Source: a virus
Direction: 5' to 3' (one strand)
Length of the DNA: 64,000 bases
IMG/VR virus record: IMGVR_UViG_3300020123_000589
Location: 1 to 64,000 of that record
The notes under the pieces: model-generated
The model's database searches: none
Told to the model about the DNA's origin: nothing
The model's input: only the letters and a program-made list of their open reading frames with translations
In this document: positions 3,772 through 29,385 of the stretch, piece after piece
Numbering within the stretch: the first letter of the stretch is position 1
How the letters are laid out: each line of letters begins with the position of its first letter
Made by a program: the position numbers and the translations under genes

Positions 3772-4349
3772 GTAAAAAACAAAAGTATAGTGACAATTGT
3801 ATACTCGTAATTGATATCGAGGCAACATGCCTTGAAAACCAGAATGGTCAACCACAAGAAGAATTTATTAGCGAGATTATCGAAATTGGCTACGCCGTTC
3901 TGGATTACAAAATAAACGAAATTAAAGGAACGGGATCAATAATTATTAAACCCATACAATCAGTAGTTACGAAATTTTGTACTGATTTGACTGGACATAC
4001 TCAAGAATCTGTAGATCGTGGAATTTCTTTTGCAGAAGCATGTCAGACATTGCAAAGTGATTTGATGTCTGGTGGTAGGCTTTGGGCTTCCTACGGAAAT
4101 TACGACCTTGACATGTTTAAAAAGGAATGCCAGAGAAAGAACGTTAAGTATCCGTTTGTTGCACAGCACCTCAACATAAAAGCGATGGCGACTGTGCTTA
4201 ATGGCAGTGTTAATGGATTAGGACGCACCCTATCCTTACTCAAGATGAACTTTGAAGGGCGGCACCATTCAGGCCACGATGATGCTTACAACACTGCCAG
4301 GATTCTCCAGCATTACAAGAATAAATTTGGAGCACAAATTTTTGCATAA
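3768..4349 (+). CDS. DEDDh 3'-5' exonuclease (ERI-1/KapD-like)
   Basis: VIDIEATC, EIIEIG, YD..M, HHSGHDDAYNTA motifs. Confidence 0.85.
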   Translation: MSKKQKYSDNCILVIDIEATCLENQNGQPQEEFISEIIEIGYAVLDYKINEIKGTGSIIIKPIQSVVTKFCTDLTGHTQESVDRGISFAEACQTLQSDLMSGGRLWASYGNYDLDMFKKECQRKNVKYPFVAQHLNIKAMATVLNGSVNGLGRTLSLLKMNFEGRHHSGHDDAYNTARILQHYKNKFGAQIFA

Positions 4350-4539
4350 TTGTATCTGCGGTCATTCTGAAGAAGAACACGAAGCACATAAACTTAGTAT
4401 GATGAATCTAGGTGGTGTTCATTGGTGTAGAGGGTGTTCTATTGAAAATAGATTTTCTCCTCCAAACATGTTTCACGATTTCAAATTAGACAATCTCTCT
4501 TATATTGAAGATTTAGCTAAGAAAAAGGGCCTAATTTAG
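4342..4539 (+). CDS. DNL-tag family, Zn-binding class A
   Basis: CICGH..H..CRGC..HDFKLDNLSYIEDLAKKKGLI; TTG start inferred (ORF track begins at 4252). Confidence 0.7.
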   Translation: MHNCICGHSEEEHEAHKLSMMNLGGVHWCRGCSIENRFSPPNMFHDFKLDNLSYIEDLAKKKGLI

Positions 4540-4564
4540 TTGATTTTTAGATGCAAAATAACCC

Positions 4565-4593
4565 TTGACAAACCTTCCTTTTTCTGCTATACT
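4565..4593 (+). promoter_or_regulatory. sigma70-type promoter
   Basis: TTGACA-17 nt-TATACT with TGn extension, intergenic. Confidence 0.85.
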
Positions 4594-4631
4594 TAAGAGA
4601 CAAGGAATAGAAGCAAAAAGGAGATCAAACT

Positions 4632-5216
4632 ATGACTCACAAGAGCGTAATTTTGTCTGCCATTGCCCTTGCTTCAATTCTTACCCTGGGGATCGAGAAA
4701 ATTATTTATTTGCCCAGCACAATGAAGGTGTATCGTCGTAATTTGAAGGATCTGCATTATTACAAAGAAGCTACACTCTTAACTGACTGTCTTTATCGTG
4801 AAGGCACTCCAGTCAGCACTAGAACGATTAAAGAAACTCTTGAAGCTATTGATAAGTTTGTACCTAAGTATTTTCCCAACGGTCCTTACACTCGTGAAGA
4901 TTTTGTAGCTATGGCATGGTTGGAATCTGGGTTTAATCAGTTTGAAGTGGGAACTCATGGAGAGAAAGGTATTTTCCAAATCATGCCGGATGAATACCAG
5001 GATAACAACATCAAATTAAATAAATACGATATTGCTACCAACACTGAACTTTGTATGACTGTTTTGCAAGCAAAGTTTCACAAATTTCCAGATTATAAAA
5101 AAGCCGTGATTGCTTACAATGGGGTTGTTCGAAATAAAAACGGCAAATGGTCAGAGAAGTATTGGAAAGGTTTTGAGAAGCGCAGATCTGTGGTGGATAC
5201 GTTATTTAATTCATGA
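4632..5216 (+). CDS. lytic transglycosylase (SLT domain) with N-terminal TM/signal segment
   Basis: AMAWLESGFN, GEKGIFQIMP, AVIAYNG. Confidence 0.8.
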   Translation: MTHKSVILSAIALASILTLGIEKIIYLPSTMKVYRRNLKDLHYYKEATLLTDCLYREGTPVSTRTIKETLEAIDKFVPKYFPNGPYTREDFVAMAWLESGFNQFEVGTHGEKGIFQIMPDEYQDNNIKLNKYDIATNTELCMTVLQAKFHKFPDYKKAVIAYNGVVRNKNGKWSEKYWKGFEKRRSVVDTLFNS

Positions 5217-5416
5217 GGATAAAAGTTTTATGCAGATGTGGGCATGAGAAACGGGAACACCAAAAAGATTATATAGTTTGCGTTGGATGTTTTACTAAAT
5301 ATGAAGGTTGGAAGAGGAACAAAAATACAAAAGCTTTGGAACTTGGATGTAGAAAGTTTGTTCCAGATAACCTGGATTACATAGAAAAGTTGGCAAAGAG
5401 TAGAGGACTTGTGTGA
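5213..5416 (+). CDS. DNL-tag family, class A
   Basis: CRCGH..H..CVGC..CRKFVPDNLDYIEKLAKSRGLV. Confidence 0.75.
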   Translation: MRIKVLCRCGHEKREHQKDYIVCVGCFTKYEGWKRNKNTKALELGCRKFVPDNLDYIEKLAKSRGLV

Positions 5417-5955
5417 GTACATTTTGGCTGTCTATTTTATTCTTTGTGATTGGATTGATTGAATTTGCGGTCGATCAATACGAGAAATTAGTATCGGTCA
5501 GGTTAAAAATACTGCCCACGTTGCTTTACAGTGTCATAAACAACTCGATTGATTTTCTTATGTACGTTTTTCTCTTTAAAATTTTGATTCAGTTTTGGGA
5601 GAATTGGCACGATGGGGTTCACGACTATTACAAACTCATTCCCTTCATTGCGTATACGGTTGGTAAGATTGTTGGAACTGTCGGAGCCCTTTACGTTTAT
5701 TCTGAAACAAAGAAAAAGAAAGACAGAGAAAAAGCTTTAAAATTAGCTGAGCGGCAGCACAAGAAAACAAATGGCAAGAAACGAACCAAGAGACAGAAAG
5801 CTAAAGATGACAAACATAATTCAGATGTAGCAGCTACTATGCTTGATCCTGTTGAAATGGAAGATTTAAAAGCAGAAGTGAAAGAACGCGCCATTGAAAA
5901 TGCAACGCAGCAAATTTCTAAAAAAATTGACGAGGCTCTAAATGAAAACAATTAA
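5413..5955 (+). CDS. membrane protein
   Basis: About three hydrophobic segments followed by a basic/acidic tail. Confidence 0.55.
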   Translation: MSTFWLSILFFVIGLIEFAVDQYEKLVSVRLKILPTLLYSVINNSIDFLMYVFLFKILIQFWENWHDGVHDYYKLIPFIAYTVGKIVGTVGALYVYSETKKKKDREKALKLAERQHKKTNGKKRTKRQKAKDDKHNSDVAATMLDPVEMEDLKAEVKERAIENATQQISKKIDEALNENN

Positions 5956-6842
5956 AGCAAGTTTAAAATTAAATAAGAATGGTAGGTTGTTTTGCAGCGT
6001 TCACAACACGTACAGAGTGGTTAAACCGCCAAAGAGTAATTGTAAAATTTGTTGGGTTCTTTACAACAACTCTTCCAAGCAAGATATCATAGATTATTTA
6101 ACAGAAATCTTGGATAGGAACGGAACATTATAAATGAACCCAATTAAAGCGCAACGTACCTGGCATTCCCTTTCAACCAAATGGATTAATGCTTCTCCCT
6201 ACGGGATGGGAAGTTTTTCTCCACGACCCAAAAGAAATTCAAGACGCAAATCTAAAGTGAAGCGAGGGTTGTTGGTGAATTATATTCCCGTAGAAGTGGT
6301 AAACGCTATCACAGGTGAAGTATCAAAAGGGTATATGCGTGACCTTTCAATTAAACGGTTGCGTAAATGGCTTGAATTCCACAACCACAAAGCCCAGGTG
6401 GAGCAAGTGTACCTTTCAAATAAAACTACCCTTCAGCACTTATCTGAAAAGGATATAAAAGATTTCCCCATCCTAATAAAATTAGGCAGGTATCAAGTAC
6501 CCTACTTGATCGACCACGCTAGAGCGGATATAATTGTACGTGGTAGGAAAACAGTGACACTCAATTTAAAAACTGTGGATAATTTAAAATACCTTGAAAC
6601 TATAGCAGATAGAAAGAGTAAAGTGATTAGATTATTTAATAAAATTAAGAAAACTAAAAAGTCTAAATGATAAATAAACAGTGGATGAATGATTTTGCTT
6701 ATGAGGTAAAGAAATGTCCCAAATGCCATCAAAAATCCTTCTGCTTGATTTTTAGCAGCGAAGAGTTTGGAGATGAGTGGGAATGTGCTGAAGACAGGTG
6801 TGGATACAATCCAAAGTGTTCATGCAACAATTGTAAAATAAG

Positions 6843-7157
6843 ATGAAGTATCCAGGTGATTGGTTTTGTAAATTGTGTGAAAAACAATTTAAAAGCCACC
6901 TTCAAATCGGTGAAGAAGCGATTGAGTTTGATTACCTAAATGAAAACGGTGGTAAAATTAAAGTAAAAAACAACAATAATTGGTGTTTTGAAGATGTCCC
7001 CACCGCCAATACAGAACAAAATAGTTGGGTATTTGAGCCTGTAGATAACTTGACCCAGGTTGAACTATTGGCTAAACAGAGGGGCATAACAAAAGGGAAA
7101 AACCCTAGTAAAATACCCCTTGACAAACAAGAAGATAGCAGGTATACTATAAAATAA
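6843..7157 (+). CDS. DNL-tag family, class A variant
   Basis: YPGDWFCKLC..H..NWC..FEPVDNLTQVELLAKQRGI; paralog of 7182. Confidence 0.7.
   Translation: MKYPGDWFCKLCEKQFKSHLQIGEEAIEFDYLNENGGKIKVKNNNNWCFEDVPTANTEQNSWVFEPVDNLTQVELLAKQRGITKGKNPSKIPLDKQEDSRYTIK
7120..7148 (+). promoter_or_regulatory. sigma70-type promoter
   Basis: TTGACA-17 nt-TATACT. Confidence 0.8.
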
Positions 7158-7181
7158 AGATAGGGCAGAGAAGGTTGAGAT

Positions 7182-7475
7182 ATGAAAGGTAAGAGCTTAA
7201 TAGGAGGTGTGGAACAAGAGGGTAAGAGGATTTACCCTCCAGATTGGCCTTGTAAAGCTTGTGGTAGAGCTTGGAAGGTTCATGTGAAAAAAGGGGAGCC
7301 CTCTTACGATAAAAGTCCTTGGCTAGATAATTGGTGTTGGGGACGGATTAAAGGATCAGACAAATTAATGGAGAATCAATTAAAGAAGCTACTCTTCTTC
7401 ATACCTGTAGACAATCTTTCATACATTGAGATTAAAGCCAAGTCAGCAGGGAAGTTGAATAAAAGGAATAAATAA
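7182..7475 (+). CDS. DNL-tag family, class A variant
   Basis: YPPDWPCKAC..H..NWC..FIPVDNLSYIEIKAK. Confidence 0.7.
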   Translation: MKGKSLIGGVEQEGKRIYPPDWPCKACGRAWKVHVKKGEPSYDKSPWLDNWCWGRIKGSDKLMENQLKKLLFFIPVDNLSYIEIKAKSAGKLNKRNK

Positions 7476-8002: not shown

Positions 8003-8031
8003 TTGACAAATTCGCTTACTGGGTATATAAT
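8003..8031 (+). promoter_or_regulatory. sigma70-type promoter
   Basis: TTGACA-17 nt-TATAAT. Confidence 0.75.
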
Positions 8032-8517
8032 TTTATTATGTGGGCGACAAGGTGAGTAGAGCGAGTTGTCTCTGTCCAAAGTGTTCAGATGAACAGTTTG
8101 ATCCATCTGAATGTATGTTTTGTGCTAGGAAAATAAAGGGTAAAGGGAATTTGAGAAGCACAAGCGGAGCTAGAATGTGTGTTGGATGTTTGAAAGAAGC
8201 TATGAAATTACTGGCAGAAATAATCGAGAAAGAGGCTAGTTAAAAATGTTATTCACTTTTTTGTTTCATGATGGAAGTGAGATTGTATTTCGCGCTTCCG
8301 ATGTAAAACATTTTACAGGTCACGCAGCGATTACAGATGCTACAATCGTAAAGAATACAAAGAATGGAGTTCCAGTTGGAAAGCATTTTGATAGATTTAA
8401 TATTGCATTGAATTCAGATCTTTTTGGAATGTATCCAGAAGAGGAAGCAAAAGAGTTTGTTGCTAATTGTACTGGTTTTTGTCATATCCATCATTTGACA
8501 CTTACATATTCTGGTAA

Positions 8518-8907: not shown

Positions 8908-9322
8908 ATGAGAATTGGAGGTTGTTTTCATGCGTAAATTGGAAGCAGTATTTGCTGTTGCACTCGGAGTAGCGTTGGTTGCCGTTCTTATCTGGGGTAT
9001 TGCAAAAGCTACCAAAGATTTGGCTAATACCATTGCGATGGGTATTGGTAACATTTCTACTCCTGTTGAATAAGTGGAGAATTTTATGATCCCTTGCGTG
9101 ATGTGTAATAAAGAGTTTGAGAAAAATCAGCTTGACTTTCTTGGCCGCTGCGACGATTGTTTTAAGCTGTTCATGACAATGCCAGAAGCAGATAGGCCGA
9201 AGCTAGGTGTGCCCTTCGTACCTATTTATAATGGCGATAAATAATGATGACTGAGTTAACTAGGTTGTTGTGGTCTTTATTTGCTGTCGGTATACTATGG
9301 ATTTTGTGGCGATAAATATCTC

Positions 9323-11170: not shown

Positions 11171-12298
11171 GTGCAAGTAAATCCTCAGAATTATTTGGCT
11201 GAGCACAATCTTTGGGATATTGATAATTTAAAAGCTCACGCCGAACAGAATAATGTTCAAGTGATTGAGTCTAAAGATTATCCGTTTCTTGTTATGTTGC
11301 ATTATAAAAATGATTGTGTTTGGGATAATAACTGGAGCCCTTTTGCGCGTATGTGTCGGGGACTTATTTTAGATATGCACGATCAAAGGGTCCTAGCCTA
11401 TCCCTATGATAAGTTTTTCAATATGTCCCAAGTTCCCGAAACTAGCTACGATGTTTTAAAAGATAAGAAAGAGTTCGAAATCTCTGAAAAACTTGACGGC
11501 TCAATGATTTTGGTGTTCCAAGATCCTTCTACTGGAGAGTATGTAGCCACCACTAAAGGGTCCTTTGGAAGTGAACATGGCAAATTCGCTACGTCAATAT
11601 TACCAAATTCTATTAAACAAACTAAATGGGTTGAAGAGTATACATTAATGTTTGAGTTGATTTCTAGAGAGTTTCGTATAGTAATCGACTACAAAGCAAA
11701 AGGATACGCAGAAGGGCTTTATTTAATTGGCGCAAGAGAACGCAAAACAAATAGGTTGCTTACCTACTCTGAGGTGGCCGAATTAGCTGCCTCGCTTTCG
11801 ATTCCAGCCCCGAAGAGTTACTCCTTTGACTCCTTGGACCAGTTGGTGGAAAAGACGAAGGATTTGCCTATGTCCGAAGAGGGCTTTGTTTTACGTTATC
11901 CCGATGGGTTAATGGTTAAAGTGAAGGGTGCCGCTTATTTAAAAGCGCACAAGTTTATAAGCTGTTTGTCTGATAAAAATATCCTTGAAGCGGTAAGTGA
12001 AGGCGTAGAAGGTCCTTTCATAGAAATTTGTCCAGACGAGTTTCAAGCTGACGTGATAGAGAAAATTGCTTATTTTAAAAGCCGTAAGGTTGATCTTTTG
12101 AATCAGTGTTATAAATACTTTGCTGAGGCACCTAAAGAAGAGGGACGTAAAGTTTTTGCTCTTTGGGTCCAAGCCAATGTGACACAGAGCTTGAAGGGCT
12201 GCTTATTTCAATTGATGGATTGCAAGATGTTGAAAGATAAAGACTTGTATGATATAATTAGTAAGACAGAGAAACCGAGTGTGAAAACCAGGATATGA
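11171..12298 (+). CDS. T4 Rnl1-like RNA ligase
   Basis: CRGLI, KFFN, EKLDGS (motif I), FELI, EEGFV, KVK. Confidence 0.9.
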   Translation: MQVNPQNYLAEHNLWDIDNLKAHAEQNNVQVIESKDYPFLVMLHYKNDCVWDNNWSPFARMCRGLILDMHDQRVLAYPYDKFFNMSQVPETSYDVLKDKKEFEISEKLDGSMILVFQDPSTGEYVATTKGSFGSEHGKFATSILPNSIKQTKWVEEYTLMFELISREFRIVIDYKAKGYAEGLYLIGARERKTNRLLTYSEVAELAASLSIPAPKSYSFDSLDQLVEKTKDLPMSEEGFVLRYPDGLMVKVKGAAYLKAHKFISCLSDKNILEAVSEGVEGPFIEICPDEFQADVIEKIAYFKSRKVDLLNQCYKYFAEAPKEEGRKVFALWVQANVTQSLKGCLFQLMDCKMLKDKDLYDIISKTEKPSVKTRI

Positions 12299-12756: not shown

Positions 12757-13314
12757 GTGCAACTTTCCAGTTCTAGCTTTCTCGTGCGTTGTTCTAGCTG
12801 GTATTTCCTTTTGGATTGGTATTCAATGACATCTGCATGGGGACAGTTCAGGGATTTTATTAATTCCAAAGAAATTGGATATACCTTCAATCGTCAAAAA
12901 TTATTTGAGAGTCTTTCTAGAATTAACCCATCTACTATAGATGCGTATCGTTCTCTCATTCAACAAGCTAAGTTTATTGTGAGAGTCGGTCGTGGACAGT
13001 ATAAACTTATTTCGCATTTGCCAGAAGGATTGACAATGGGTTCTCTCTTTGCGTTACTGTGTGGAGACAATCTTACGTATGTTGAATCGCTGCAAAATCA
13101 AAAAGATTTTAAAATACTTAAAGATCAATTTATAAAAGAACGTAAGGTAGTACTTTCACAATTGATAGAAGATGCTCAAAAGCATGTCGAGTATGCACAA
13201 ACGATTGAGTTTCCAGCTCTTGGATTAAAGAAACAGATACGAACCTGGAAACGGGAACTGGAGAAAACTCCCAATCCAACCAAAGCATGGCTACAAAAGA
13301 AGAACAGTAAATGA
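12757..13314 (+). CDS. hypothetical protein with internal DNL motif
   Basis: wHTH-like N-terminus (RVGRGQYKL); internal GDNLTYVESL. Confidence 0.5.
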   Translation: MQLSSSSFLVRCSSWYFLLDWYSMTSAWGQFRDFINSKEIGYTFNRQKLFESLSRINPSTIDAYRSLIQQAKFIVRVGRGQYKLISHLPEGLTMGSLFALLCGDNLTYVESLQNQKDFKILKDQFIKERKVVLSQLIEDAQKHVEYAQTIEFPALGLKKQIRTWKRELEKTPNPTKAWLQKKNSK

Positions 13315-15284: not shown

Positions 15285-15500
15285 ATGGTAAATTTGTGGA
15301 TGGCAACTTTGTTGGAAAATAAGTTACCTTGTATTATTTGTAACAAAGAATGGATTGAGCATCATCTAGCAGAATATTATGGAGATTTGTTTCTCCCTTT
15401 TTGTTATCCTGTTAAATCAAATAATCCTATGGCACATTATACACCAATGAATAATCTGGATTACATAGAGTACCTTGCAAAACAGAGGAACTTGGTGTAA
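15285..15500 (+). CDS. DNL-tag family, class A variant
   Basis: CIIC..EH..FC..PMNNLDYIEYLAKQRNLV. Confidence 0.7.
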   Translation: MVNLWMATLLENKLPCIICNKEWIEHHLAEYYGDLFLPFCYPVKSNNPMAHYTPMNNLDYIEYLAKQRNLV

Positions 15501-15747
15501 AGTTATGAGAAGGGATTATTTAGATGGGTCGTGGAATTGGGACATATGTGGCAATTGTAAACATCACCATCTCAGCCATACAAATTGGTCCGAGGTAGGA
15601 TCAGGAAAATTGGAATGGGTAGAACGTTGTCGTGTTACACATTACGGACCATCTAAATTAGAAAAGCAATGTAGCTGTACTGAATGGGTACCAAAAGATA
15701 ATCTGGACCTCATTGAATTTTTAGCTGAAAAAAGAAATTTAGTTTAA
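15475..15747 (+). CDS. DNL-tag family, class A
   Basis: CGNCKH..H..C..CSC..PKDNLDLIEFLAEKRNLV. Confidence 0.7.
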   Translation: MQNRGTWCKVMRRDYLDGSWNWDICGNCKHHHLSHTNWSEVGSGKLEWVERCRVTHYGPSKLEKQCSCTEWVPKDNLDLIEFLAEKRNLV

Positions 15748-17925: not shown

Positions 17926-18138
17926 ATGGAAAAATGTATAATTTGTGGGCATGATCGAACTGTCCATGGCCGCCCAAGTGGATGGCACCCAGGGTTAACA
18001 TTTTGTGTGAAGTGTTTAGAACTAACACTAGATTTTCCAAATATAGAATCATTACCTTCATCACATCAAATGTATCACAATTTCAATGACAACCTTCTCT
18101 ACATTGAACGCTTGGCCAAAGAAAGAAATTTGATATGA
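17926..18138 (+). CDS. DNL-tag family, class A
   Basis: MEKCIICGH..H..CVKC..HNFNDNLLYIERLAKERNLI. Confidence 0.75.
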   Translation: MEKCIICGHDRTVHGRPSGWHPGLTFCVKCLELTLDFPNIESLPSSHQMYHNFNDNLLYIERLAKERNLI

Positions 18139-18362
18139 TGATTAAAGCAACACATTTATGTCGTTGTGGGCATCAAGCAAATTCACATACTTCTGGAGTA
18201 TTCCCTTGCGACCATCCTGATGGGGTTCCTCTTGAAGTAGTTCAGAACAACAGCTATTCTAATTGTGGAAAATGTTCTAGTAGCGGTGGTACTTGTAAAC
18301 ATTTCGAATTACCTAATCTGGACCTTATTGAATATTTAGCTGAGAAGCGAGGATTGATTTAA
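18135..18362 (+). CDS. DNL-tag family, class A
   Basis: CRCGH..H..CGKC..CKHFELPNLDLIEYLAEKRGLI. Confidence 0.75.
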   Translation: MMIKATHLCRCGHQANSHTSGVFPCDHPDGVPLEVVQNNSYSNCGKCSSSGGTCKHFELPNLDLIEYLAEKRGLI

Positions 18363-19508: not shown

Positions 19509-20667
19509 TTTAATAATTACCTGTCAGCCAATCGATCTCAGAGATTTCAAAGAGATTATTGGAGAGCTTTTGCCTTTAGAAACCTGTCAACAAGATCCAA
19601 CATGGCATGGCGAGGGTGACGTACTTTCCCATACCAATCTTGTGATGAAAGAAACTCTTGAACAGATGCAAAATGTCCGTGAAGGTTTCCCAAGAATTGC
19701 TTTATACATCGCCGCACTTTTGCACGACATCGGCAAACCAGATACAGCCAAACCAAAGAAGAATGGATTTAATAGCTTTCACGGTCATGAGAAGGCAGGT
19801 GTATGGAGAGCAAAAGAATTCCTAAAGAAATACTTCCCACAATTTAATTTTCGCCAACGTGATCTTATTTTAAATTTGGTTGAGTATCACGGCCATCCCA
19901 AACGAATGATTGAAGATGGTTCTAATGATGATAAATTTAAAAAGCTTTCTCTTGAAGTTCCTACACATCTAGTTTATAATTTAGAGATGGCTGATTTCAA
20001 AGGCCGTATTGCAAACGACATTCCAAAGGCACTTGTTGTTCTCGATCAGTTTAAAAAGCGATGTGAGGACTTAAATATTTATGGGAAGACTTATCAAATT
20101 CCTAACTCTAAAGACCTTACAAATCTCCAGTATTCTATTTTTCGATGGAACATTCTGATGCACCATAAGAAAGAAGATGATCAAAAAGAGATTGACAGGA
20201 TTATCAAATTGACCGATAAGCCGAATCATCCTTTAGAACTTACCCTATTGATTGGTGTTCCTGGGAGTGGTAAGACCACGTATCGAAACACACTGACAAA
20301 TAGCAAGGTTATTAGCATGGATGAAGAAAGAATTAGGTTGTGTGGTGATGTAAATGATATGTCCAAAAACCAGGAAGTATTTAATAACTGCTTTAAAGAG
20401 TTGAATAAGAGCTTAAGAGTTGGTGAGAATGTTATTTGGGATGCCACCAACCGCACAAGAAAAATACGTAAAACGCTCATAGATGCCGCTAGAAGCCACG
20501 GAGCCTGGGTTTCCATCATCTACTGGGATCTTACGATAGAAACCCTCTTAAAACGAAACGCTGAGCGTGAGAAGGTCGTTCCAGATGACATTGTGTGGCG
20601 GTTTTACAAGGACCTAGAAACCCCAGCTTCATATGAGTATGAGAAGTTGCATGTGTTTGAAGAATGA
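19483..20667 (+). CDS. HD phosphohydrolase fused to P-loop polynucleotide kinase
   Basis: WHGEGDVLSHT, ALLHDIGKP, GHE..G; GVPGSGKTT, IWDATN, RN..R. Confidence 0.85.
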   Translation: MNTVEQFHNLIITCQPIDLRDFKEIIGELLPLETCQQDPTWHGEGDVLSHTNLVMKETLEQMQNVREGFPRIALYIAALLHDIGKPDTAKPKKNGFNSFHGHEKAGVWRAKEFLKKYFPQFNFRQRDLILNLVEYHGHPKRMIEDGSNDDKFKKLSLEVPTHLVYNLEMADFKGRIANDIPKALVVLDQFKKRCEDLNIYGKTYQIPNSKDLTNLQYSIFRWNILMHHKKEDDQKEIDRIIKLTDKPNHPLELTLLIGVPGSGKTTYRNTLTNSKVISMDEERIRLCGDVNDMSKNQEVFNNCFKELNKSLRVGENVIWDATNRTRKIRKTLIDAARSHGAWVSIIYWDLTIETLLKRNAEREKVVPDDIVWRFYKDLETPASYEYEKLHVFEE

Positions 20668-20849
20668 TTTGTTATAAATGTAAACACGAGGAGTATGAGC
20701 ATAGGTGTTCAGAAGCATACCCCAACATCCCATTATGTTGGTATTGCTTTGGAAGTGTTAACCCCTGGAAAATAGATCCTTACCACAATTTCCAAATGGA
20801 CAATTTGGATCTTATAGAACATCTAGCTAAAGAACGTAATTTAATATGA
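20664..20849 (+). CDS. DNL-tag family, class A
   Basis: CYKCKH..H..CWYC..HNFQMDNLDLIEHLAKERNLI. Confidence 0.75.
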   Translation: MICYKCKHEEYEHRCSEAYPNIPLCWYCFGSVNPWKIDPYHNFQMDNLDLIEHLAKERNLI

Positions 20850-20986
20850 AAGATTATTCACCCATTCCAATTGATATAGAAGCATTCAAGGCCGCTTTAA
20901 AATCTGAATTTGACAATGGCTACATAGACAATCTTCGATATATTGAACTTCTTGATTGGTTAAAACAATATGAAAAAGAAACCTGA
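20846..20986 (+). CDS. DNL-tag family, class B (46 aa, not in ORF track)
   Basis: Translated by hand: MKDYSPIPIDIEAFKAALKSEFDNGYIDNLRYIELLDWLKQYEKET. Confidence 0.7.
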   Translation: MKDYSPIPIDIEAFKAALKSEFDNGYIDNLRYIELLDWLKQYEKET

Positions 20987-21293
20987 ATTTGTTGAGTGGG
21001 TAGATTTGAAAGTGGGGGATTTCGTAGAATCAAAAGACTCTTATCTTTTCTGCTTTTCCATTGGAAATGTTTTTGGTGGGCCAAGCTGTTTGGGACAAGG
21101 CAAACCAAAAGTTAATAACCCCGATATTGAATACATAAATCAGTGGCTTATTTTTGGAAAGTATAAACGATTTACACCATCAAAACCATTTATAAAATTG
21201 TGTAAGAAATTACTGAAATACAATCTTAAACAAAAGCATATAGACAACCTCTCATACATAGAATCCCTTGCGTCCCTTAAAAAATATGACTGA
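20970..21293 (+). CDS. DNL-tag family, class B
   Basis: LKVGDFV; IDNLSYIESLASLKKYD. Confidence 0.7.
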   Translation: MKKKPEFVEWVDLKVGDFVESKDSYLFCFSIGNVFGGPSCLGQGKPKVNNPDIEYINQWLIFGKYKRFTPSKPFIKLCKKLLKYNLKQKHIDNLSYIESLASLKKYD

Positions 21294-21483
21294 GTATTGC
21301 ATCTGCGGTCATAAAATAAGTAAACATACTTCTTTTGCTGTGTTAAGTACTTCTTCTAGCGCACAATATTGTTCGGAATGCTTTCACTCTAAAAATTTTA
21401 TACCTGGGCATTGGGTACACCCGTTCAAACTTGATAATCTCAAACTGATAGAAGACTTAGCAAAACAAAAGAATTTGATATGA
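21286..21483 (+). CDS. DNL-tag family, class A
   Basis: CICGH..H..CSEC..HPFKLDNLKLIEDLAKQKNLI. Confidence 0.75.
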   Translation: MTEYCICGHKISKHTSFAVLSTSSSAQYCSECFHSKNFIPGHWVHPFKLDNLKLIEDLAKQKNLI

Positions 21484-21809
21484 CACCCATCAATGAAGTG
21501 CCAGTTGGAAAATTTTGTAGGTTTGCTGGAAATGTTGTTTATATTTATAAAAATAACTTTAAGGATTTTTATGGAGTAATTCCTGTAGTTGGAGTCGTGC
21601 CAAGGTATAAAAAATTTGGATATAGTGTATACGTTTACAAGCGAATTAAAAACGAATGGATTAAAGCAGCAAGAAAACACATAGATAGAATTTACAAAAC
21701 TCCAGATCACATCTTAATGAATAACGGAGTTGTGGTAGAATCTGAGGTAAGGCTAGACAACCTCACTTATATCGAGAATATAGATATTTTAAAATCGTAT
21801 GGAATTTAA
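21480..21809 (+). CDS. DNL-tag family, class B
   Basis: VPVGKFC; LDNLTYIENIDILKSY. Confidence 0.7.
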   Translation: MTPINEVPVGKFCRFAGNVVYIYKNNFKDFYGVIPVVGVVPRYKKFGYSVYVYKRIKNEWIKAARKHIDRIYKTPDHILMNNGVVVESEVRLDNLTYIENIDILKSYGI

Positions 21810-22185
21810 ACCAGGAGATATTTTATACCGTAAGTATTCAGACAAGAACGATTTGTATTGTGTAATTGTTATTACAGAAGGTCCGTTCAATATCGGACAA
21901 AATGTTAAATTTGTACGTTCCTTACCATACTATTATTCCCCTGAATTTCATTCGGGAGTACCGAAACTTTTAGGCGAATCAAGCAGTTCAGTAGAAACTT
22001 GGTACATCAAAGTGGATTTAAATAACTACGATATTAAAGATAAATTTTTAAAGAAAATAAAAGATTTTTTGGAAAACAACTTGGGCAAATTAGTAGTGAG
22101 CGACACAATTTTAGACAATCTTCTTTACATTGAAATCCTTGCAGAACTTAAGAAATATGAACCCAAAGAAAAAGACGATAAATAA
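21799..22185 (+). CDS. DNL-tag family, class B
   Basis: FKPGDIL; LDNLLYIEILAELKKY. Confidence 0.7.
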   Translation: MEFKPGDILYRKYSDKNDLYCVIVITEGPFNIGQNVKFVRSLPYYYSPEFHSGVPKLLGESSSSVETWYIKVDLNNYDIKDKFLKKIKDFLENNLGKLVVSDTILDNLLYIEILAELKKYEPKEKDDK

Positions 22186-22495
22186 TTTAAATGTTGGGAA
22201 GTTTGTAAAGTGCAACGGCTCAACGCTATACACATACAAATCAATGAATTCATACATGAATTATCCTTCTCTTGACGGTTTACTAATTATCGAGAGACAC
22301 CCAGAAAAAACTTTAACATGGACAGATCTTAAAAATTATTCTTTTATATCCAAACCAAAAAAGAAACACATTGACAACGCTATTAAGCAGTTAAAGAATA
22401 CATTAAAATTTCAAGGTATTGATAATCTTTCTTATGTAGAAAACCTTGACATCTTGAAAAATTACCTTAAATCTGATATAGTAGAAGAAGATTAA
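22157..22495 (+). CDS. DNL-tag family, class B
   Basis: LNVGKFV; IDNLSYVENLDILKNY. Confidence 0.7.
   Translation: MNPKKKTINNLNVGKFVKCNGSTLYTYKSMNSYMNYPSLDGLLIIERHPEKTLTWTDLKNYSFISKPKKKHIDNAIKQLKNTLKFQGIDNLSYVENLDILKNYLKSDIVEED
22454..22482 (+). promoter_or_regulatory. possible sigma70 promoter for the endonuclease VII-type gene
   Basis: TTGAAA-17 nt-TATAGT with TGn. Confidence 0.5.
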
Positions 22496-23563: not shown

Positions 23564-23800
23564 GTGAATAATGGCAATCTTCACATCCCGTACAATATGA
23601 AATGTGGTGGATGCCAGCATGATGCTTCAGATCATTGGGCCAGTTGGAATGGAGTTGTGGTTGCTGCTGGAACATGTTATAGTTGTATAAAGGAACAGCC
23701 TACCTGTAATTTTGGCCATTGTGCATCTTTTAAATTTGATAATTTAAATTATGTTGAAGTGATGGCAGAACGAAGGGAGCAGAAAAAGAATTTAATATGA
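23564..23800 (+). CDS. DNL-tag family, class A
   Basis: CGGCQH..H..CYSC..CASFKFDNLNYVEVMAERREQKKNLI. Confidence 0.7.
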   Translation: MNNGNLHIPYNMKCGGCQHDASDHWASWNGVVVAAGTCYSCIKEQPTCNFGHCASFKFDNLNYVEVMAERREQKKNLI

Positions 23801-24432
23801 TTCGTGCAAGGATTAATGAGGAGCCATTCGAATATCGTGATGCTTCATTGAATTCCTATGCCTTCTCTCAGGAATCCATAAAGATTCTACCAACGCTTAA
23901 GACTTTCTCAAATCGGGTAGAATCAATGTCCAAGGGTCTTAATCTCTTTCTTTGGTCGCCTAATAATGGCGCAGGGAAGACGTACCTTTCGTATGCCATT
24001 TTAAAGCAAGTAAGACAATTTGAGCAGCCTTTGTGGATCAGAGATAAAGAAGCCACACTGCCGTGCGGCAATGTAAAAACAATGGCTATTAATTTTAAAC
24101 ATTTTGTAGACCTTTGCAAAACATTCGATGATGGTGCGAAGAAATACCAGGAAGCCCTTTATAATGCTGATTATCTATTGATTGATGAAGTATCGTCGAA
24201 CATGCTTTCCCAGAATCCCCATGAAGATAAGAGACAGCTACTGGTTGTATTAGATGACAGGTTATCAGAGTTTCGTCCAACAATTATTACAAGCAACAAC
24301 TCACCTGAAGAGTTTCTAAATGCTTTTGGCCCAAACATTTATTCCAGGTTACAATCTCGAACAGAGTTCATCGAAGTTCCTGGACGTGATATGAGGCCGA
24401 TTTTAAAGATGGTGGATGCAGAGAATGCATAA
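23797..24432 (+). CDS. DnaC/IstB-like AAA+ ATPase (helicase loader-like)
   Basis: NNGAGKT Walker A, LLIDEV Walker B, TIITSN, SRL. Confidence 0.8.
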   Translation: MIRARINEEPFEYRDASLNSYAFSQESIKILPTLKTFSNRVESMSKGLNLFLWSPNNGAGKTYLSYAILKQVRQFEQPLWIRDKEATLPCGNVKTMAINFKHFVDLCKTFDDGAKKYQEALYNADYLLIDEVSSNMLSQNPHEDKRQLLVVLDDRLSEFRPTIITSNNSPEEFLNAFGPNIYSRLQSRTEFIEVPGRDMRPILKMVDAENA

Positions 24433-24634
24433 TTTGTGTAAGTGTGGGCATTCTTTAGAAGAACATACAAGCCCCAATCTATATTTAGACGATTATGGAA
24501 ACATGACCAACTTCGTTGGTAGGTGTAATCATGATAAATCTTATTTTAAAAATATGTGTAGTTGTGGTTGGTTTAGCGAAGTGGATAATTTAACTCACAT
24601 TGAATTGCTTGCAAAGCAGAAAGGTTTAGTGTGA
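24425..24634 (+). CDS. DNL-tag family, class A
   Basis: CKCGH..H..C..CSC..VDNLTHIELLAKQKGLV. Confidence 0.75.
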   Translation: MHNLCKCGHSLEEHTSPNLYLDDYGNMTNFVGRCNHDKSYFKNMCSCGWFSEVDNLTHIELLAKQKGLV

Positions 24635-24849
24635 AGAAAAAGAACAAAGATATTCTTTGCCAATGTGGGCATGAGAAGCATTTTCACAAAACATTAGGAT
24701 CTCCAGTTTGGGATGAATTTTGTAATGGAGGCAAAGTTAGGGATCGAAGTATACACGGTAGTTATATTTATGTTTGCATTTGTTCAGAATATAAACCAGA
24801 TAACCTTCTCCACATAGAAACCATTGCTAAAAAGAGAAAACTAATATGA
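24631..24849 (+). CDS. DNL-tag family, class A
   Basis: CQCGH..H..C..CIC..PDNLLHIETIAKKRKLI. Confidence 0.75.
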   Translation: MKKKNKDILCQCGHEKHFHKTLGSPVWDEFCNGGKVRDRSIHGSYIYVCICSEYKPDNLLHIETIAKKRKLI

Positions 24850-25130
24850 ATAACCACAAACTTTTTCGCCACATGTTTGAATTGCCAGAAGAAGATAGAG
24901 GAGATATTAATCAGCTTGTTGATATTCTTAGTGGTGCGGAGCACGACTTCCGAAATGTAGGAGTTGAGCTTACATACGAAGGATTTAAAGAATATTTTAA
25001 AAGAATGCTTGGCCCTTTGCCTGGAGCTGCTAGTAGTACTCGATCAAACTATTCCAGGTTATTAAAAATCCTGGAAGGTGACAACTTGGATATCATTGAA
25101 GAAGCAGCAGAGAAAAAAGGACTATTGTGA
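24846..25130 (+). CDS. DNL-tag family, class C
   Basis: GDNLDIIEEAAEKKGLL. Confidence 0.7.
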   Translation: MNNHKLFRHMFELPEEDRGDINQLVDILSGAEHDFRNVGVELTYEGFKEYFKRMLGPLPGAASSTRSNYSRLLKILEGDNLDIIEEAAEKKGLL

Positions 25131-25567
25131 AAACTCCAGGTAATTATGGAGAACTCATTGCAAACTATATAGGTGGAACTTTGTGGTCTTACGTTACATA
25201 TGGAGATTACCAAGGAGATTATGTAGCCTTAATTTATAAAGATTCTAATTTGCTAGTGTACAAAGGATTATATGGTTCTTGCGGTGGTTGTGATTGGTTA
25301 TCTGATTATTATAGTGACGAAGAAATCCCAGAAGAAAAGATTAAAGAATACATGATGGATATACAACCATTTCTTACGATTCCGTCTGATTCCCTTCCTA
25401 AAACCGAAGGGGATTTGATTGCGCTGTTGCCAGCAAATACGAGAATTTGGTTGGACGATGAATACGCAGAAGTTAAAGTGCGTGACATATTGAAACAAAT
25501 AAATGAACCTACATGTAATAATTTAGATATTATCGAAACAGAAGCAAAGGGTAAAGGATTGATATGA
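25127..25567 (+). CDS. DNL-tag family, class C
   Basis: GDYQGD..YGSCGGCDW domain; CNNLDIIETEAKGKGLI. Confidence 0.7.
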   Translation: MKTPGNYGELIANYIGGTLWSYVTYGDYQGDYVALIYKDSNLLVYKGLYGSCGGCDWLSDYYSDEEIPEEKIKEYMMDIQPFLTIPSDSLPKTEGDLIALLPANTRIWLDDEYAEVKVRDILKQINEPTCNNLDIIETEAKGKGLI

Positions 25568-26184: not shown

Positions 26185-26768
26185 AAAACGTAATAAAATT
26201 TGGTGTTAGAGTAAGGAGTATAAAAATTCTATGAGCAATTCATCTATAGTAGGTTCCAATACGACCTCAACATGGGGCTCGGCCACATATTCAACAGGTC
26301 AATTCTTGTCTGCTTCGTGTAGTGCATGTTATCAAACGTATAATGTCAACAGTGGACATTATTGCCAAGGCACTACGTTGCCAATTACTTGGACTACTAC
26401 GACAGGTACCACCCTTCAAAATATGGGCACCATTACCTTTGGATCGAATTTTAAAAATGTAAAAGAGATTACAACAGATATTGAGCTGATTTATGAATGG
26501 AGTGACTCGTCATTTAATATGAAACTTCCTGCGAAATTTGGGGATTGTTTTCTAAAGGTGGGTTACACTTGGTCGCCATTGTACCCACTCATCTTCTCTG
26601 CCATTGAGAACGATTCTAAAGAATTATCCTTTCATTTGGTTACAGGTATTACAGATAAATCGTTTGAAGGAGACACAGTAATTTTGAAATCAGTAACATC
26701 AACTAAGATTGAAGATAATTTAACTTTATTACAGTTAGCAGAAAAGGTTCGTAACCATTTTAAAGAAT

Positions 26769-27233
26769 ATGATAAAACCAATCCTACTTTATAATCAGGC
26801 CATACTTAATACAGCTTGTAAACCCGTTACAGATTTCAACGATCCAACTTTGGAACAGTTGGTTCAGGATCTTTTGGATACGTGCGCTGCTAACAATGGT
26901 GTTGGATTAGCTGCAAATCAAATTGGAAGCGAACTATCCGTTTGCGTTTTGGACGTGGAGAACAGAACAAAAAAGATGGTTTTAATTAACCCTAAAATCA
27001 TTTCGTACTCAAAGAAGAAACATAAGATGGCAGAGGCTTGTCTATCATGCCCAGGGTTATCCGTTACACTTAAACGTCCAGAGAGTATAATTGTAGATGC
27101 GAATTTATTAACTGGTGAATTGGTTCGTTATCAATTTGATGGGTACGACGCTAGAATTTTAATCCACGAACACAATCATTTATTTGGATTTACGATTGCG
27201 AAGACTGTAAATAGCTACCTTCCCAAGTTATAA
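26769..27233 (+). CDS. def: peptide deformylase
   Basis: GVGLAANQIG, EACLS, HEHNH motifs. Confidence 0.9.
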   Translation: MIKPILLYNQAILNTACKPVTDFNDPTLEQLVQDLLDTCAANNGVGLAANQIGSELSVCVLDVENRTKKMVLINPKIISYSKKKHKMAEACLSCPGLSVTLKRPESIIVDANLLTGELVRYQFDGYDARILIHEHNHLFGFTIAKTVNSYLPKL

Positions 27234-27240
27234 TTAAGAT

Positions 27241-27432
27241 ATGGAAGAGATTTGTATTTGTGGTCACGAGATAAATGAACATCATGATGGTTCAATTTCA
27301 AACATACCAGTTTGTAATTTGTGTAGAGAATTGAATATGGGTATTGGTGAAGACGATTGTTATCACGAATTTAAACTTGACAATTTACGATGTATTGAAC
27401 AAGAAGCTAAACGCAGAAATTTAATAAACTAA
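27241..27432 (+). CDS. DNL-tag family, class A
   Basis: CICGH..H..CNLC..HEFKLDNLRCIEQEAKRRNLIN. Confidence 0.75.
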   Translation: MEEICICGHEINEHHDGSISNIPVCNLCRELNMGIGEDDCYHEFKLDNLRCIEQEAKRRNLIN

Positions 27433-29196
27433 AGAGGAGATAAGAAATGAGAGACGGAACAATTCACAGTTACTTTGAGAACGTAGTTAAATATATGCAG
27501 CAAGTTGAGCAATCAGCAAGGTTGGGAATTACTGGGGAGGCCGTTCGTGGAGCCGCATTGCAACAGTTGTTGGTAAAGAAAGGTTTGATTACGGAAGCCG
27601 AGTTGACCGAAGCTATTGGTGATGTTATTCGCAAAGCAAATGAAGCCAAGCCTGATCCAGCAACAGAAGCTCCAAAGGTTGAGATTGTTCCAGCCACCCC
27701 AGAACAAACGCAAGCAGTTGAAAAGAGTGTGGTTGAGGAACCCAAAGCATAATGGCAATCCACACTAGCGTCTTATCATTTGCAGATTTTATAAATAGCC
27801 AATCAATGTTGAAAATTATTCAACAGGAGGTAGGGGTGATTAAAAATATGTATGTGTACCAAGATCCCTATCAGGCAGCATATTTAATAAAATGGGAAAT
27901 TAACGATTCAGATTCTAATTGGATCAGAGAAGATTTTTAAAGGGAGATTTAATACATGAGCCACGACCTATACAAAATCACTGTTTCATTTGTTGTGTGC
28001 GATGGTATGAGAGATAAAGTGTTAGAAGAAATTCGTGATTTAACACAACACATAGAAAAGAATGCATTGGATCATGCTTCCAATAAAAAGATTAAAGTGA
28101 CGCATGAACCAGCAACAGAAGAAGATCTGCATTAGGAGTGGGGAGATAATAAATGAATTTTAATCCAGAATGTTATCGATGTTCCAACGAGGGTTGGGTT
28201 ATAAACTCTTTAGGTACTTATATAAATTGTCCTGTTTGCCACGACAGCCGATTAATTAGAATTTTAAAAGCCAATGTTTTTAAATTATTGGTTTGTCTTT
28301 TTAAATTCTTTTCTGACTCTTTGAATAAAATTAATTGGACTTCAGAAGAGATTTTGAGATTTGAGCGATTTTATAACGTAGAATTGGAAGGGAAAATTGA
28401 ACAACGTCAGGAATTGCCTTTTAATTCATACGACGAACTTTTTAAAACTGGAAATACGGTTTTAAAAAATAAATATGCTTATAAAATTATAAGTAGTTAC
28501 GTTGTCGGTTATACGGAGTCAATTACATTAGTTGGAACGGCTTTAGAAGTGCTCACAGGATCGCAGGATTTGCTTCCCTTGGCCGAAAAGACGCATAATA
28601 ATGCCGTTATGGGGAAAGATACAGCCAATGAATTTTGGAAGGCTGTAGACGAAGTAGTTAAAAACTAGGAGATATGACATGAGTGAAGAAATGATACAAA
28701 ATCCAGAACCAGTAAAAGAAACTGTAACGATTAGCAAAGAGCAACTTGAAGCTATGCAAGAACAGCTTAGAGTTCTTTCTCAACAATTCCAAAAAGATGT
28801 TGTTCATCCAGTTCAACCTATTGCACCAGCACAAACAGTCATTACGGCTGATTCTAATGCGGCTAAACCAGAACAACCTAAAGAAGTTATTTTAGAGGAA
28901 GTAGATACAGCTTCTTTATTTAAACAGAATCCTTGGAGCATTGGAAATAAAGTAAGGGTGTCTGAAAAATATCCTCAGATTCAGGGTGGTGTAAATTGGA
29001 AAGGCCGTGTAGGAACTATCAACAAGATCCTGAAAGATCCTTCGGGCGTAAAGATGGTTGAGGTTGCTTTTGGTGATGTTCAAGTACCTTTTCATCGTCC
29101 ACACCCAACAAAGCCTGGAGTGACACAAAAAGGTTATCGTATTCAAAAAGCCGTCCAAACATTCGATGATTCCTGTTTGGAGCCTGTATACGAATA

Positions 29197-29385
29197 ATGA
29201 AGTCATCTTTAGAAGATAAATGCGTCTGCGGCCATACTTATGGGAGACATTCAAAAGCTCCTTTTAGATATTGTTTTTTAGATTGTTATTTTGAAAATAA
29301 ACCTCAAGAAGAATGGCAGCATACGTTCAAGTTAGATAACCTCACCTTAATTGAAAAGCTTGCTAAAGAACGAGGGCTTGTTTGA
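29197..29385 (+). CDS. DNL-tag family, class A
   Basis: CVCGH..H..C..C..HTFKLDNLTLIEKLAKERGLV. Confidence 0.75.
   Translation: MKSSLEDKCVCGHTYGRHSKAPFRYCFLDCYFENKPQEEWQHTFKLDNLTLIEKLAKERGLV

What the first reader, a model, noticed from the sequence alone, without database searches (positions are those of the whole stretch)
4342..29385. Class A: 15 mini zinc-binding proteins with fixed Cys/His scaffold and hypervariable loops
Seen: pattern C-x(1-2)-C-[GKQ]-H-x4-H ... C-(x2)-C ... [HC]-x-[FWY]-x2-DNL in 4342, 5213, 15475, 17926, 18135, 20664, 21286, 23564, 24425, 24631, 27241 and 29197, with variants at 6843, 7182 and 15285. Loops between ligands differ completely in length and sequence. The tails of 15475 and 18135 remain similar at DNA level (aatctggacctcattgaatttttagctga vs aatctggaccttattgaatatttagctga), suggesting recent duplication or exchange. 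Inference: a small metal-stabilised scaffold displaying variable recognition loops under diversifying selection.
Basis: partly seen in the sequence, partly recalled or inferred. Interest (0 to 1): 0.75.

Follow-up and report, generated by a model that had tools for sequence, protein, structure and literature searches.

The report
Zinc-finger microproteins sharing one tail helix
An uncultured 151-kb phage encodes about two dozen tiny, probably zinc-binding proteins with a fixed Cys/His frame, paralogue-specific loops and a shared 16-residue end helix that unrelated small proteins also carry; the family is real, common in metagenomes and undescribed, but its function is unknown.

Summary
All 15 ORFs exist on the + strand. 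Twelve carry C-x(1-2)-C-[GKQ]-H-x4-H plus later Cys/His, and three are C2HC-like variants. All end in [DNP]-N-L-x-x-[IV]-E-x-[LIM]-A. Both motifs are more than 100-fold above chance, and codon third positions vary, so selection acts on the protein.

The genome holds 24 such proteins. A profile finds 962 clusters in public metagenomes, all 56-99 aa and unnamed. No Pfam, PHROG, PDB or isolated-phage match was found.

Loops between paralogues are no more alike than shuffled sequence (17% vs 16%). Orthologues in related phages keep their loops at 42-60%, and three pairwise loop dN/dS estimates are 0.3-0.6. Loops are therefore paralogue-specific and fast-evolving, but diversifying selection is not shown. 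Recent duplication is not supported.

The tail is a separate module, also found on about 13 non-zinc heads in the window; a profile comparison aligns only those 15 residues.

My best reading is an early-gene library of zinc-stabilised binder heads joined to a common docking or pairing helix. Target and partner are unknown. Zinc binding and fold are inferred; weak fold hits to RING, U-box and PHD are inconclusive.

The scan noted this family before only in other windows of this same genome.

The parts
4342..4539 (+). Zn class, 65 aa, TTG start overlapping the upstream stop. CICGH-x4-H, CRGC, H-x-F-K-L-DNL tail.
   Evidence: Called as a gene in public assemblies. No positional partner in relative G001.
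5213..5416 (+). Zn class, 67 aa. CRCGH-x4-H, CVGC, C at -6 (C-x2-F-V-P-DNL subtype).
   Evidence: Orthologue P0101 keeps 18/30 loop residues.
6843..7157 (+). Variant, 104 aa. C-x2-C-x6-H ... WCF (C2HC-like). The tail is followed by an extension (37 residues from its D to the stop).
7182..7475 (+). Variant, 97 aa. C-x2-C-G-x5-H ... WCW. The tail is followed by a short basic extension.
15285..15500 (+). Variant, 71 aa. C-x2-C-x5-HH ... FCY, NNL tail.
   Evidence: Orthologue in L103 (P0144) keeps 13/23 loop residues.
15475..15747 (+). Zn class, 90 aa (TTG 15475 or ATG 15505). CGNCKH-x4-H, with C-x-C just before the tail.
17926..18138 (+). Zn class, 70 aa. CIICGH-x4-H, CVKC, H-N-F-N-DNL. The ATGA overlap starts the next member.
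18135..18362 (+). Zn class, 75 aa. CRCGH-x4-H, CGKC, C-K-H-F-E-L-PNL tail.
   Evidence: G001 partner 55% identical
20664..20849 (+). Zn class, 61 aa. CYKCKH-x4-H, CWYC, H-N-F-Q-M-DNL.
   Evidence: P0023 keeps 13/27 loop residues
21286..21483 (+). Zn class, 65 aa, closest to the consensus. Modelled at pLDDT 84.6.
23564..23800 (+). Zn class, 78 aa, GTG start in a GTGA overlap. CGGCQH-x4-H, CYSC, H-C-A-S-F-K-F-DNL. The tail is 20 aa.
24425..24634 (+). Zn class, 69 aa. CKCGH-x4-H, with C-S-C just before the tail.
24631..24849 (+). Zn class, 72 aa, GTG start. CQCGH-x4-H, with C-I-C just before the tail.
   Evidence: G001 partner 53% identical
27241..27432 (+). Zn class, 63 aa, acidic (pI 4.8). CICGH-x4-HH, CNLC, C-Y-H-E-F. 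Modelled at pLDDT 75.8.
29197..29385 (+). Zn class, 62 aa. CVCGH-x4-H, C-x3-C, H-T-F-K-L-DNL.
   Evidence: scaffold dN 0.03, loop dN 0.33 against L228
18812..22495 (+). Cluster of seven non-zinc ORFs with the same DNL-x-Y-I-E helix: 18812-19150, 19134-19508, 20846-20986, 20970-21293, 21480-21809, 21799-22185, 22130-22495. They have SH3-like starts and the tail variant DNLxYIExLxxLKxY. 20846 is little more than the tail.
24846..25567 (+). Two Cys-poor ORFs (24846-25130, 25127-25567) ending in [DN]NLDIIE-x2-A-x-K-K-G-L-[LI].
   Evidence: 25127 is 78% identical to its G001 partner
30113..30418 (+). Non-zinc ORF, 101 aa, with the same tail (GDNLDIIEETAKKKGLI).
6134..6670 (+). 178-aa non-zinc ORF with an internal-terminal DNLKYLE helix, 30 aa before the stop.
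32865..33122 (+). 85-aa non-zinc ORF with DNLDFIELYA, 24 aa before the stop.

Best explanation
These ORFs are real genes of an old, expanded family of modular phage microproteins. Each has two parts.

1. A head of about 45 residues. Seven or eight conserved Cys/His hold it together: C-x-C-G-H-x4-H, a second Cys pair, and a last H or C. This most likely means one or two zinc ions (inferred). Two loops differ completely between paralogues but are kept within each orthologous lineage. I read them as the specific binding surface (inferred).

2. A constant C-terminal amphipathic helix, D-N-L-x-[YFLH]-[IV]-E-x-L-A-K-x-R-x-L-[IV]. It is an independent module, because the same helix ends unrelated, Cys-free heads (shown).

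The genes lie among nucleotide-metabolism, RNA-repair, replication-loader and peptidase genes, away from the virion genes. Many are chained by ATGA or GTGA stop/start overlaps, so they are probably made together by translational coupling (layout shown, timing inferred).

Most likely mechanism (inferred): a library of small binders, each with its own host or phage target, that share one partner or pair with each other through the common helix. The target, the partner and the stage of infection are unknown.
For: Real and non-random:
- The tail motif occurs 37 times against 0.2 expected, and the knuckle 22 times against 0.23. All are on the + strand and 13-37 aa before a stop.

Protein-level selection:
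- Third codon positions of invariant L3 and A10 carry 0.01 and 0.34 bit, while positions 1 and 2 carry 2.0. Only 42% of identical residues use identical codons.

Family breadth:
- 962 clusters at E<=1e-3 and 105 at <=1e-10, all 56-99 aa.
- 30-35 matches in each of two related viral contigs and 30 in the own genome.

Scaffold:
- 141 of 150 have the knuckle, and 131 of those 141 have a mid CxxC.
- The last ligand is H at -5 in 103 of 141; a CxxY-x-P-DNL subtype instead has C at -6.

Models: pLDDT 75.8 and 84.6, with a helix over the tail.

Tail is a separate module:
- hhalign of the zinc class against the SH3-like class aligns only 15 tail residues (prob 93%, E 2.9e-7).
- A 46-aa ORF is almost tail only.

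Heads are diverse:
- pI ranges 4.8-9.8 and head charge -8 to +8, which argues against one common nucleic-acid ligand.

Loops are lineage-specific yet constrained:
- Paralogues 17% identical against 16% shuffled. Nearest orthologues 42-60%. Loop dN/dS 0.3-0.6.

Faster turnover than neighbours:
- Reciprocal best hits to G001 have a median identity of 42% for the zinc class against 63-64% for other genes. Several members have no positional partner.

Context: exonuclease, SLT, RNA ligase 1, deoxyribosyltransferase, HD-kinase, IstB/DnaC-like ATPase, ThyX, deformylase and M50 peptidase. 23 of 42 tails end in a start/stop overlap.
Against: - No partner, target or metal was observed.
- No model coordinates were returned, so ligand geometry could not be checked.
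- Seven conserved ligands do not make two complete tetrahedral sites.
- The fold search gave nothing significant.
- The tail could merely stabilise each small fold.
- Its last four or five codons also carry the next gene's ribosome-binding region and start codon, so part of their conservation may be at the RNA level.
- The host is unknown and expression timing is only inferred from gene order.
Confidence: 0.5

Rival explanations
1. The tail is only a fold-stabilising cap (a strand plus a helix packing on each small head). The proteins have independent functions with no common partner. The family is simply a fast-evolving set of accessory zinc fingers.
For: In both models the tail is a confident helix in a compact 63-65-aa protein. 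U-box and RING folds, the only weak structural neighbours, end in a helix that packs on the core.
Against: The same D-N-L-x-Y-I-E core, with invariant polar N and E, ends heads that share nothing else. A 46-aa ORF is nearly tail only. A purely structural cap would not need invariant polar residues across unrelated folds.
Confidence: 0.22
2. They are specific nucleic-acid-binding regulators or structural DNA-binding proteins. This was proposed for the roughly 35-copy zinc-ribbon expansion of Bacillus phage G.
For: Small zinc ribbons often bind DNA or RNA. Iyer et al. 2021 suggest this for phage G (PMC7824862). There is a weak profile likeness to the N-terminal zinc finger of a tRNA thiolase (E 0.013).
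Against: Net head charge runs from -8 to +8 and several members are acidic. There is no conserved basic patch outside the tail. The family has no sequence relation to phage G (0 matches at E<=1).
Confidence: 0.13
3. The tail is a sorting or turnover signal. It would either load the proteins into the capsid for injection, like the T4 capsid-targeting sequence, or deliver them to a protease for timed removal.
For: One short constant peptide sits on about 40 otherwise different small proteins. The phage encodes an M50 peptidase next to the cluster.
Against: The genes lie with the enzyme genes, not the virion genes. In 6843, 7182 and several class-B members the motif is followed by extra residues up to the stop (it starts 17-37 residues before the stop, against 16 in the standard tail), so a free C-terminus is not required. 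No cleavage motif is evident.
Confidence: 0.1
4. The ORFs or the motif are by-products of a DNA- or RNA-level signal (promoter, coupling element, recombination site) rather than protein-coding features.
For: 23 of 42 tails overlap the next start codon. The last codons are purine-rich, like a ribosome-binding site.
Against: Third positions of the conserved D-N-L..I-E..L-A codons are nearly random, while positions 1 and 2 are fixed. Tail DNA identity has a median of 27/48. Cys/His positions are conserved across 150 distant relatives.
Confidence: 0.03

Closest known systems
Lineage-specific expansion (about 35 copies) of a zinc ribbon in Bacillus phage G (Iyer, Anantharaman, Krishnan, Burroughs, Aravind 2021, Viruses 13:63, PMC7824862)
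   Same: A large phage carries dozens of tiny Cys-rich paralogues of unknown role. Those authors propose specific binding functions.
   Different: There is no detectable sequence relation. The family profile finds 0 matches at E<=1 in the 497-kb phage G genome, against 30 in the own genome. No shared C-terminal helix on unrelated heads is described there.
Cross-brace two-zinc fingers (RING, U-box, SP-RING, PHD, FYVE)
   Same: The order of ligand pairs (C-C, H-H, C-C, H/C) would fit an interleaved two-site layout. There is a short helix after the third pair and a C-terminal helix. The weak structural rows are almost all of this kind.
   Different: Scores are at noise level (Foldseek E>1, VIA Z 2.0-2.6). 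Only seven ligands are conserved. No member reaches a Pfam threshold. No ubiquitin-type machinery is implied.
Viral families with variable heads on one constant docking motif, e.g. poxvirus ankyrin proteins with a C-terminal PRANC/F-box-like helix bundle, or the T4 internal proteins' capsid-targeting sequence (my own knowledge, not tested here)
   Same: The architecture is many different recognition heads plus one short constant peptide shared across the set.
   Different: The motif, fold, host domain and position differ. No partner for the DNL helix is known. This is an analogy of logic only.
Zinc ribbon / rubredoxin-like knuckle pairs (e.g. the N-terminal finger of the NcsA/TtuA tRNA thiolase, PDB 6scy)
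   Same: Two Cys knuckles separated by a short loop. This is the best, still insignificant, PDB profile hit (E 0.013).
   Different: The extra G-H-x4-H and the last H or C are absent from plain ribbons. The match covers only 36 residues.

Membership tests
Bacillus phage G zinc-ribbon expansion | Detectable sequence similarity to the phage G paralogues | tested here: not met
   Profile A2 finds 0 matches at E<=1 in JN638751, against 30 in the own genome. tblastn of member 21286 against 50,697 phage records at E<=1 finds nothing.
RING/U-box/PHD cross-brace fingers | Eight ligands in four pairs binding two zinc ions in interleaved order | tested here: inconclusive
   Seven positions are conserved (C, C, H, H, C, C, H/C). 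An eighth C or H is present in only about half of 141 relatives. No coordinates were available to check geometry.
RING/U-box/PHD cross-brace fingers | Significant structural match to a solved member | tested here: inconclusive
   The best VIA Z is 2.6 (rmsd 3.5 A over 50 residues, U-box 7xed_C). Eight of nine rows are RING or U-box. Foldseek E is at least 2.8.
RING/U-box/PHD cross-brace fingers | Match to a Pfam RING, PHD or FYVE model above its gathering score | tested here: not met
   One or two of 150 members hit each at E 0.007-0.04. None is near the cut-off.
LIM domain | Pfam PF00412 match; two sequential fingers C-x2-C-x16-23-H-x2-C and C-x2-C-x16-21-C-x2-C/H/D | tested here: not met
   One of 150 members hits at E 0.011. 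The spacing differs. An Atlas neighbour cluster shows LIM on only 17% of its members.
Zinc ribbon (two knuckles) | Two Cys knuckles on beta-hairpins binding one zinc | tested here: inconclusive
   C-x(1-2)-C and C-x2-C are present in 131 of 141. Strands flank both in the model. The PDB profile hit is E 0.013. No metal geometry is available.
Any Pfam or PHROG family | Profile match at E<=0.001 | tested here: not met
Loops under diversifying selection | dN/dS above 1 in loops, or loops unconserved among orthologues | tested here: not met
   Loop dN/dS is 0.6, 0.59 and 0.32 in three pairs. These rest on 23-26 codons with near-saturated dS, so they are weak. Nearest orthologues keep 42-60% of loop residues. 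Site models were not run.

The most novel reading that the evidence does not exclude
The DNL helix is a universal plug. About 40 proteins of this phage (24 zinc heads plus SH3-like and other heads), and hundreds in related uncultured phages, would dock through it onto one hub. The hub could be a host protease, the polymerase or another machine, or a phage-encoded one. The phage would then carry a modular adaptor or inhibitor library in which heads choose targets and the tail supplies the common action. This would be a bacterial-virus counterpart of the F-box or PRANC logic.
Probability: 0.3. Interest if true: 0.85.

Novelty: new variant of a known kind. Interest (0 to 1): 0.6.

Why it matters
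Expansions of tiny zinc fingers in large phages have been noted, but none has a known function. Here the family is large: 24 copies in one genome and at least 962 sequence clusters in metagenomes. It is absent from Pfam, PHROGs, the PDB and cultured phages.

It is also built on a plan not described for phages, in which one short helix is shared by unrelated heads on roughly one gene in six. If the helix is a docking or pairing element, it gives a direct experimental handle: a 16-residue peptide could fish out a central host or phage hub used during takeover. The heads would be a natural library of very small, metal-stabilised binders.

If the helix is only structural, the finding reduces to a new family of accessory zinc microproteins.

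Tried and rejected
- Sequence searches that found nothing: megablast of 10 kb and tblastn of a member against 50,697 phage records.
- Pfam and PHROGs gave no family.
- Fold searches were all insignificant or empty: Foldseek PDB on two models, VIA wide on two models, the VIA second look and BFVD.
- PDB profile searches gave only chance-level rows, for the whole protein and for the tail alone. The tail alone hit a cytochrome b562 helix at E 0.22.
- The head-only profile found no fused or longer forms, and only self at similar length.
- The search for related loci could not use the alignment.
- The degenerate DNA pattern picked up two unrelated protein families with an internal look-alike in viral contigs. 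In cellular genomes it picked up mostly streptococcal proteins with an internal FKLDNLYDIE, in ORFs of 650-855 aa that look SecA-like but were not identified, plus one other unrelated protein. Both sets were rejected as chance.
- The ESM Atlas gave only unnamed viral clusters and low-TM zinc fingers.
- 90% clusters of the window's own proteins hold no sequence variants, so no microdiversity test was possible.
- A homodimer prediction (two copies plus zinc) was requested nine times. The machine did not complete, so self-association is untested.
- A DNA- or RNA-level origin of the motif was rejected on codon evidence.
- Recombination through the tail DNA was rejected, because tails share a median of only 27/48 nt.

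Full report
**What the window is.** The window is the first 64 kb of a single 151,359-bp viral contig. It has 37.5% G+C and its genes are on the + strand. IMG/VR classes it as a provirus and CheckV estimates 79% completeness. Public protein tables place the same proteins on a 175,549-bp contig. No cultured phage resembles it at the DNA level.

The stretch 0.2-33 kb holds small ORFs mixed with enzyme genes:
- an RNase T-type exonuclease
- an SLT transglycosylase
- RNA ligase 1
- a nucleoside deoxyribosyltransferase
- an HD-kinase
- an IstB/DnaC-like ATPase
- ThyX
- peptide deformylase
- an M50 peptidase

Larger ORFs follow from about 33 kb. I read these as the virion genes, but I did not scan them against family libraries.

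**Check of the observation.** All 15 ORFs exist with the stated starts. Twelve carry the knuckle C-x(1-2)-C-[GKQ]-H-x4-H.
- Nine of these have a mid C-x2-3-C and a late H or C just before the tail. The late ligand is H at -5 in most, H at -4 in 17926 and C at -6 in 5213.
- Three (15475, 24425, 24631) instead have a C-x-C directly before the tail.
- 6843, 7182 and 15285 form a C-x2-C-x6-H ... C subtype.

Two small corrections apply. 18135 reads PNL and 15285 reads NNL.

The pattern is far from chance. In six-frame translation of the whole genome, DNL..[IVL]E occurs 37 times against 0.2 in order-2 Markov simulations. The knuckle occurs 22 times against 0.23. Every occurrence is on the + strand, every tail lies 13-37 residues before a stop, and 20 of 22 knuckle ORFs carry the tail. 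Nine further zinc-class members lie outside the window, giving 24 in the genome.

**Protein-level or nucleic-acid-level conservation.** In the 23 tails of exactly 16 residues, codon positions 1 and 2 of the invariant N, L, E and A carry 2.0 bits. Position 3 carries 0.01 bit for L3 and 0.34 for A10. Across paralogue pairs, only 42% of identical residues use the same codon, and tails share a median of 27 of 48 nt. Selection therefore acts on the peptide.

There is one caveat. 23 of 42 tails end in an ATGA, GTGA or TTGA overlap with the next start codon, and the last codons are purine-rich. The final four or five residues may therefore also be shaped by translational coupling.

**Breadth of the family.** A profile of 22 members, searched against 1.84 billion cluster representatives, found 962 proteins at E<=1e-3 and 105 at <=1e-10. 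All of the best 150 are 56-99 aa. All sampled members are unnamed metagenome proteins.

In the best 150:
- 141 match a relaxed knuckle pattern, and G follows the second Cys in 102 of them
- 131 of those 141 have a mid CxxC
- 103 of 141 have H at position -5 from the D of the tail
- a CxxY-x-P-DNL subtype has C at -6 instead

This H/C interchange is typical of a metal ligand. The distance between H4 and the tail is 26-44 residues.

Two IMG/VR contigs (117 kb and 142 kb, identical where they overlap) carry 35 and 30 profile matches. A 28-kb contig carries three. Other fragments show the same arrays and the same neighbouring enzymes.

No member was found in 50,697 phage records. None was found in the Bacillus phage G genome, whose roughly 35-copy zinc-ribbon expansion is the nearest published analogue (positive control).

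**The tail is a module of its own.** About 13 further ORFs in the window, and 42 candidate tails in the genome by a relaxed motif, end in the same helix on heads without the Cys/His frame:
- a cluster of SH3-like heads at 18.8-22.5 kb, with the variant DNLxYIExLxxLKxY
- three Cys-poor proteins at 24846, 25127 and 30113
- a 46-aa ORF that is almost tail only

Profile-profile comparison of the zinc class with the SH3-like class aligns only 15 tail residues (probability 93%, E 2.9e-7). In 6843, 7182 and several class-B proteins extra residues follow the motif, so a free C-terminus is not essential.

**Structure.** AlphaFold2 models reached pLDDT 75.8 with 22 sequences and 84.6 with 150 sequences. 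Both show short strands around the two knuckles, a short helix after the second knuckle, and a helix of about 11 residues over the tail. No coordinates were returned, so the ligand partition could not be measured.

No search gave a significant match: Foldseek PDB E>=2.8, VIA Z<=2.6, BFVD E>=1. The weak rows are almost all RING, U-box, SP-RING, PHD or FYVE. This would fit an interleaved two-site layout of the pairs C-C / H-H / C-C / H-?. I rate it inconclusive. Only seven ligands are conserved, and no Pfam finger model is approached. The best PDB profile hit is the N-terminal zinc finger of a tRNA thiolase at E 0.013.

**Evolution of the loops.**
- Between the 23 in-genome paralogues compared, the loop region is 17% identical (median, maximum 31%). 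This equals shuffled loops at 16%, so the loops do differ completely between paralogues.
- There is no recently duplicated pair. The 15475/18135 tail likeness (36/48 nt) is second of 276 pairs and not an outlier.
- Synteny with the 117-kb relative runs from window 255 to 33,400. Reciprocal best hits have a median identity of 42% for zinc members, against 63-64% for other genes.
- In ten positional pairs the loops are 24% identical, the knuckles 58% and the tails 57%.
- Several members have no positional partner (4342, 20664, 15285/15475, one of 17926/18135), so there is gain and loss.
- Closer metagenome orthologues keep their loops. 5213/P0101 keep 18 of 30, 29197/P0030 keep 13 of 23, 15285/P0144 keep 13 of 23, and 20664/P0023 keep 13 of 27.
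- Nei-Gojobori estimates on three pairs give loop dN of 0.33-0.36 and dN/dS of 0.3-0.6. For pair 29197, the only one with a finite scaffold estimate, the scaffold gives dN 0.03 and dN/dS 0.02, and an adjacent gene gives 0.08. These rest on 23-26 codons and near-saturated dS, so they are indicative only.

Together, the paralogues are old. Each keeps its own loops under weaker purifying selection than the frame. Positive selection is not shown.

**How it most likely works.**
- Shown: a modular architecture (variable Cys/His head plus constant helix), protein-level selection on both parts, old paralogy with lineage-specific loops, operon-like chaining among non-structural genes, and wide occurrence in one clade of uncultured phages.
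- Inferred: the head binds zinc; the loops form a specific binding surface; the helix is a common docking or pairing element; the set acts in host takeover or counter-defence.

Head charge from -8 to +8 argues against one shared nucleic-acid ligand and for diverse protein targets. Rivals are a purely structural tail, DNA- or RNA-binding regulators, and a sorting or turnover tag. A nucleic-acid artefact is excluded by the codon data.

**Limits.** The homodimer test could not be run because the service did not complete (nine attempts, listed under Tried and rejected). The host is unknown. No expression data exist.

Earlier notes of this scan on other windows of the same genome describe the same tail and family. 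I used them as leads only and re-tested what I reuse. The family was not reported on any other genome by the scan.

Noticed in passing
window 2841-2880, 53870-53912, 63483-63516 (also genome 90651, 131632, 144305): A conserved intergenic element of about 40 nt, CCCTCTTAAAAATATAATAAAATCAGGTATTATTAGGG. It has a TATAAT-like core inside an imperfect palindrome and may be a promoter or regulatory cassette.
   Followed up: partly
window 5942-6133, 6667-6846, 8040-8243, 9074-9244, 13311-13595, 29382-29627: Further Cys-rich micro-ORFs without the DNL tail. 8040 has four CxxC pairs. 29382 has a CICGN knuckle and CPRC. The phage therefore carries other small zinc-ribbon-like genes beside this family.
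   Followed up: no
genome 113460 and 116980 (outside the window): Two ORFs with a C-x2-C-[QK]-H-x4-H knuckle but no DNL tail, so the head can occur without the tail.
   Followed up: no
window 20846-20986: A 46-aa ORF that is little more than the tail helix. It could act as a competitor or regulator of whatever the tail binds.
   Followed up: no
window 11171-12298 and 19483-20667: RNA ligase 1 and an HD-domain/kinase fusion. Together they resemble the T4-type tRNA repair pair that counters anticodon nucleases.
   Followed up: partly
L008 against genome 146719-151359: A 5.7-kb IMG/VR contig is 100% identical to the end of the genome and runs 1,031 nt beyond it. Protein tables cite a 175,549-bp contig with the same proteins, so the 151-kb record is probably incomplete.
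   Followed up: partly
L229 (Logan SRR31322783), 1029-1232: The closest orthologue of window 5213 sits between an endonuclease VII gene and ThyX, not after the SLT gene as here. This suggests that single members move between positions.
   Followed up: no
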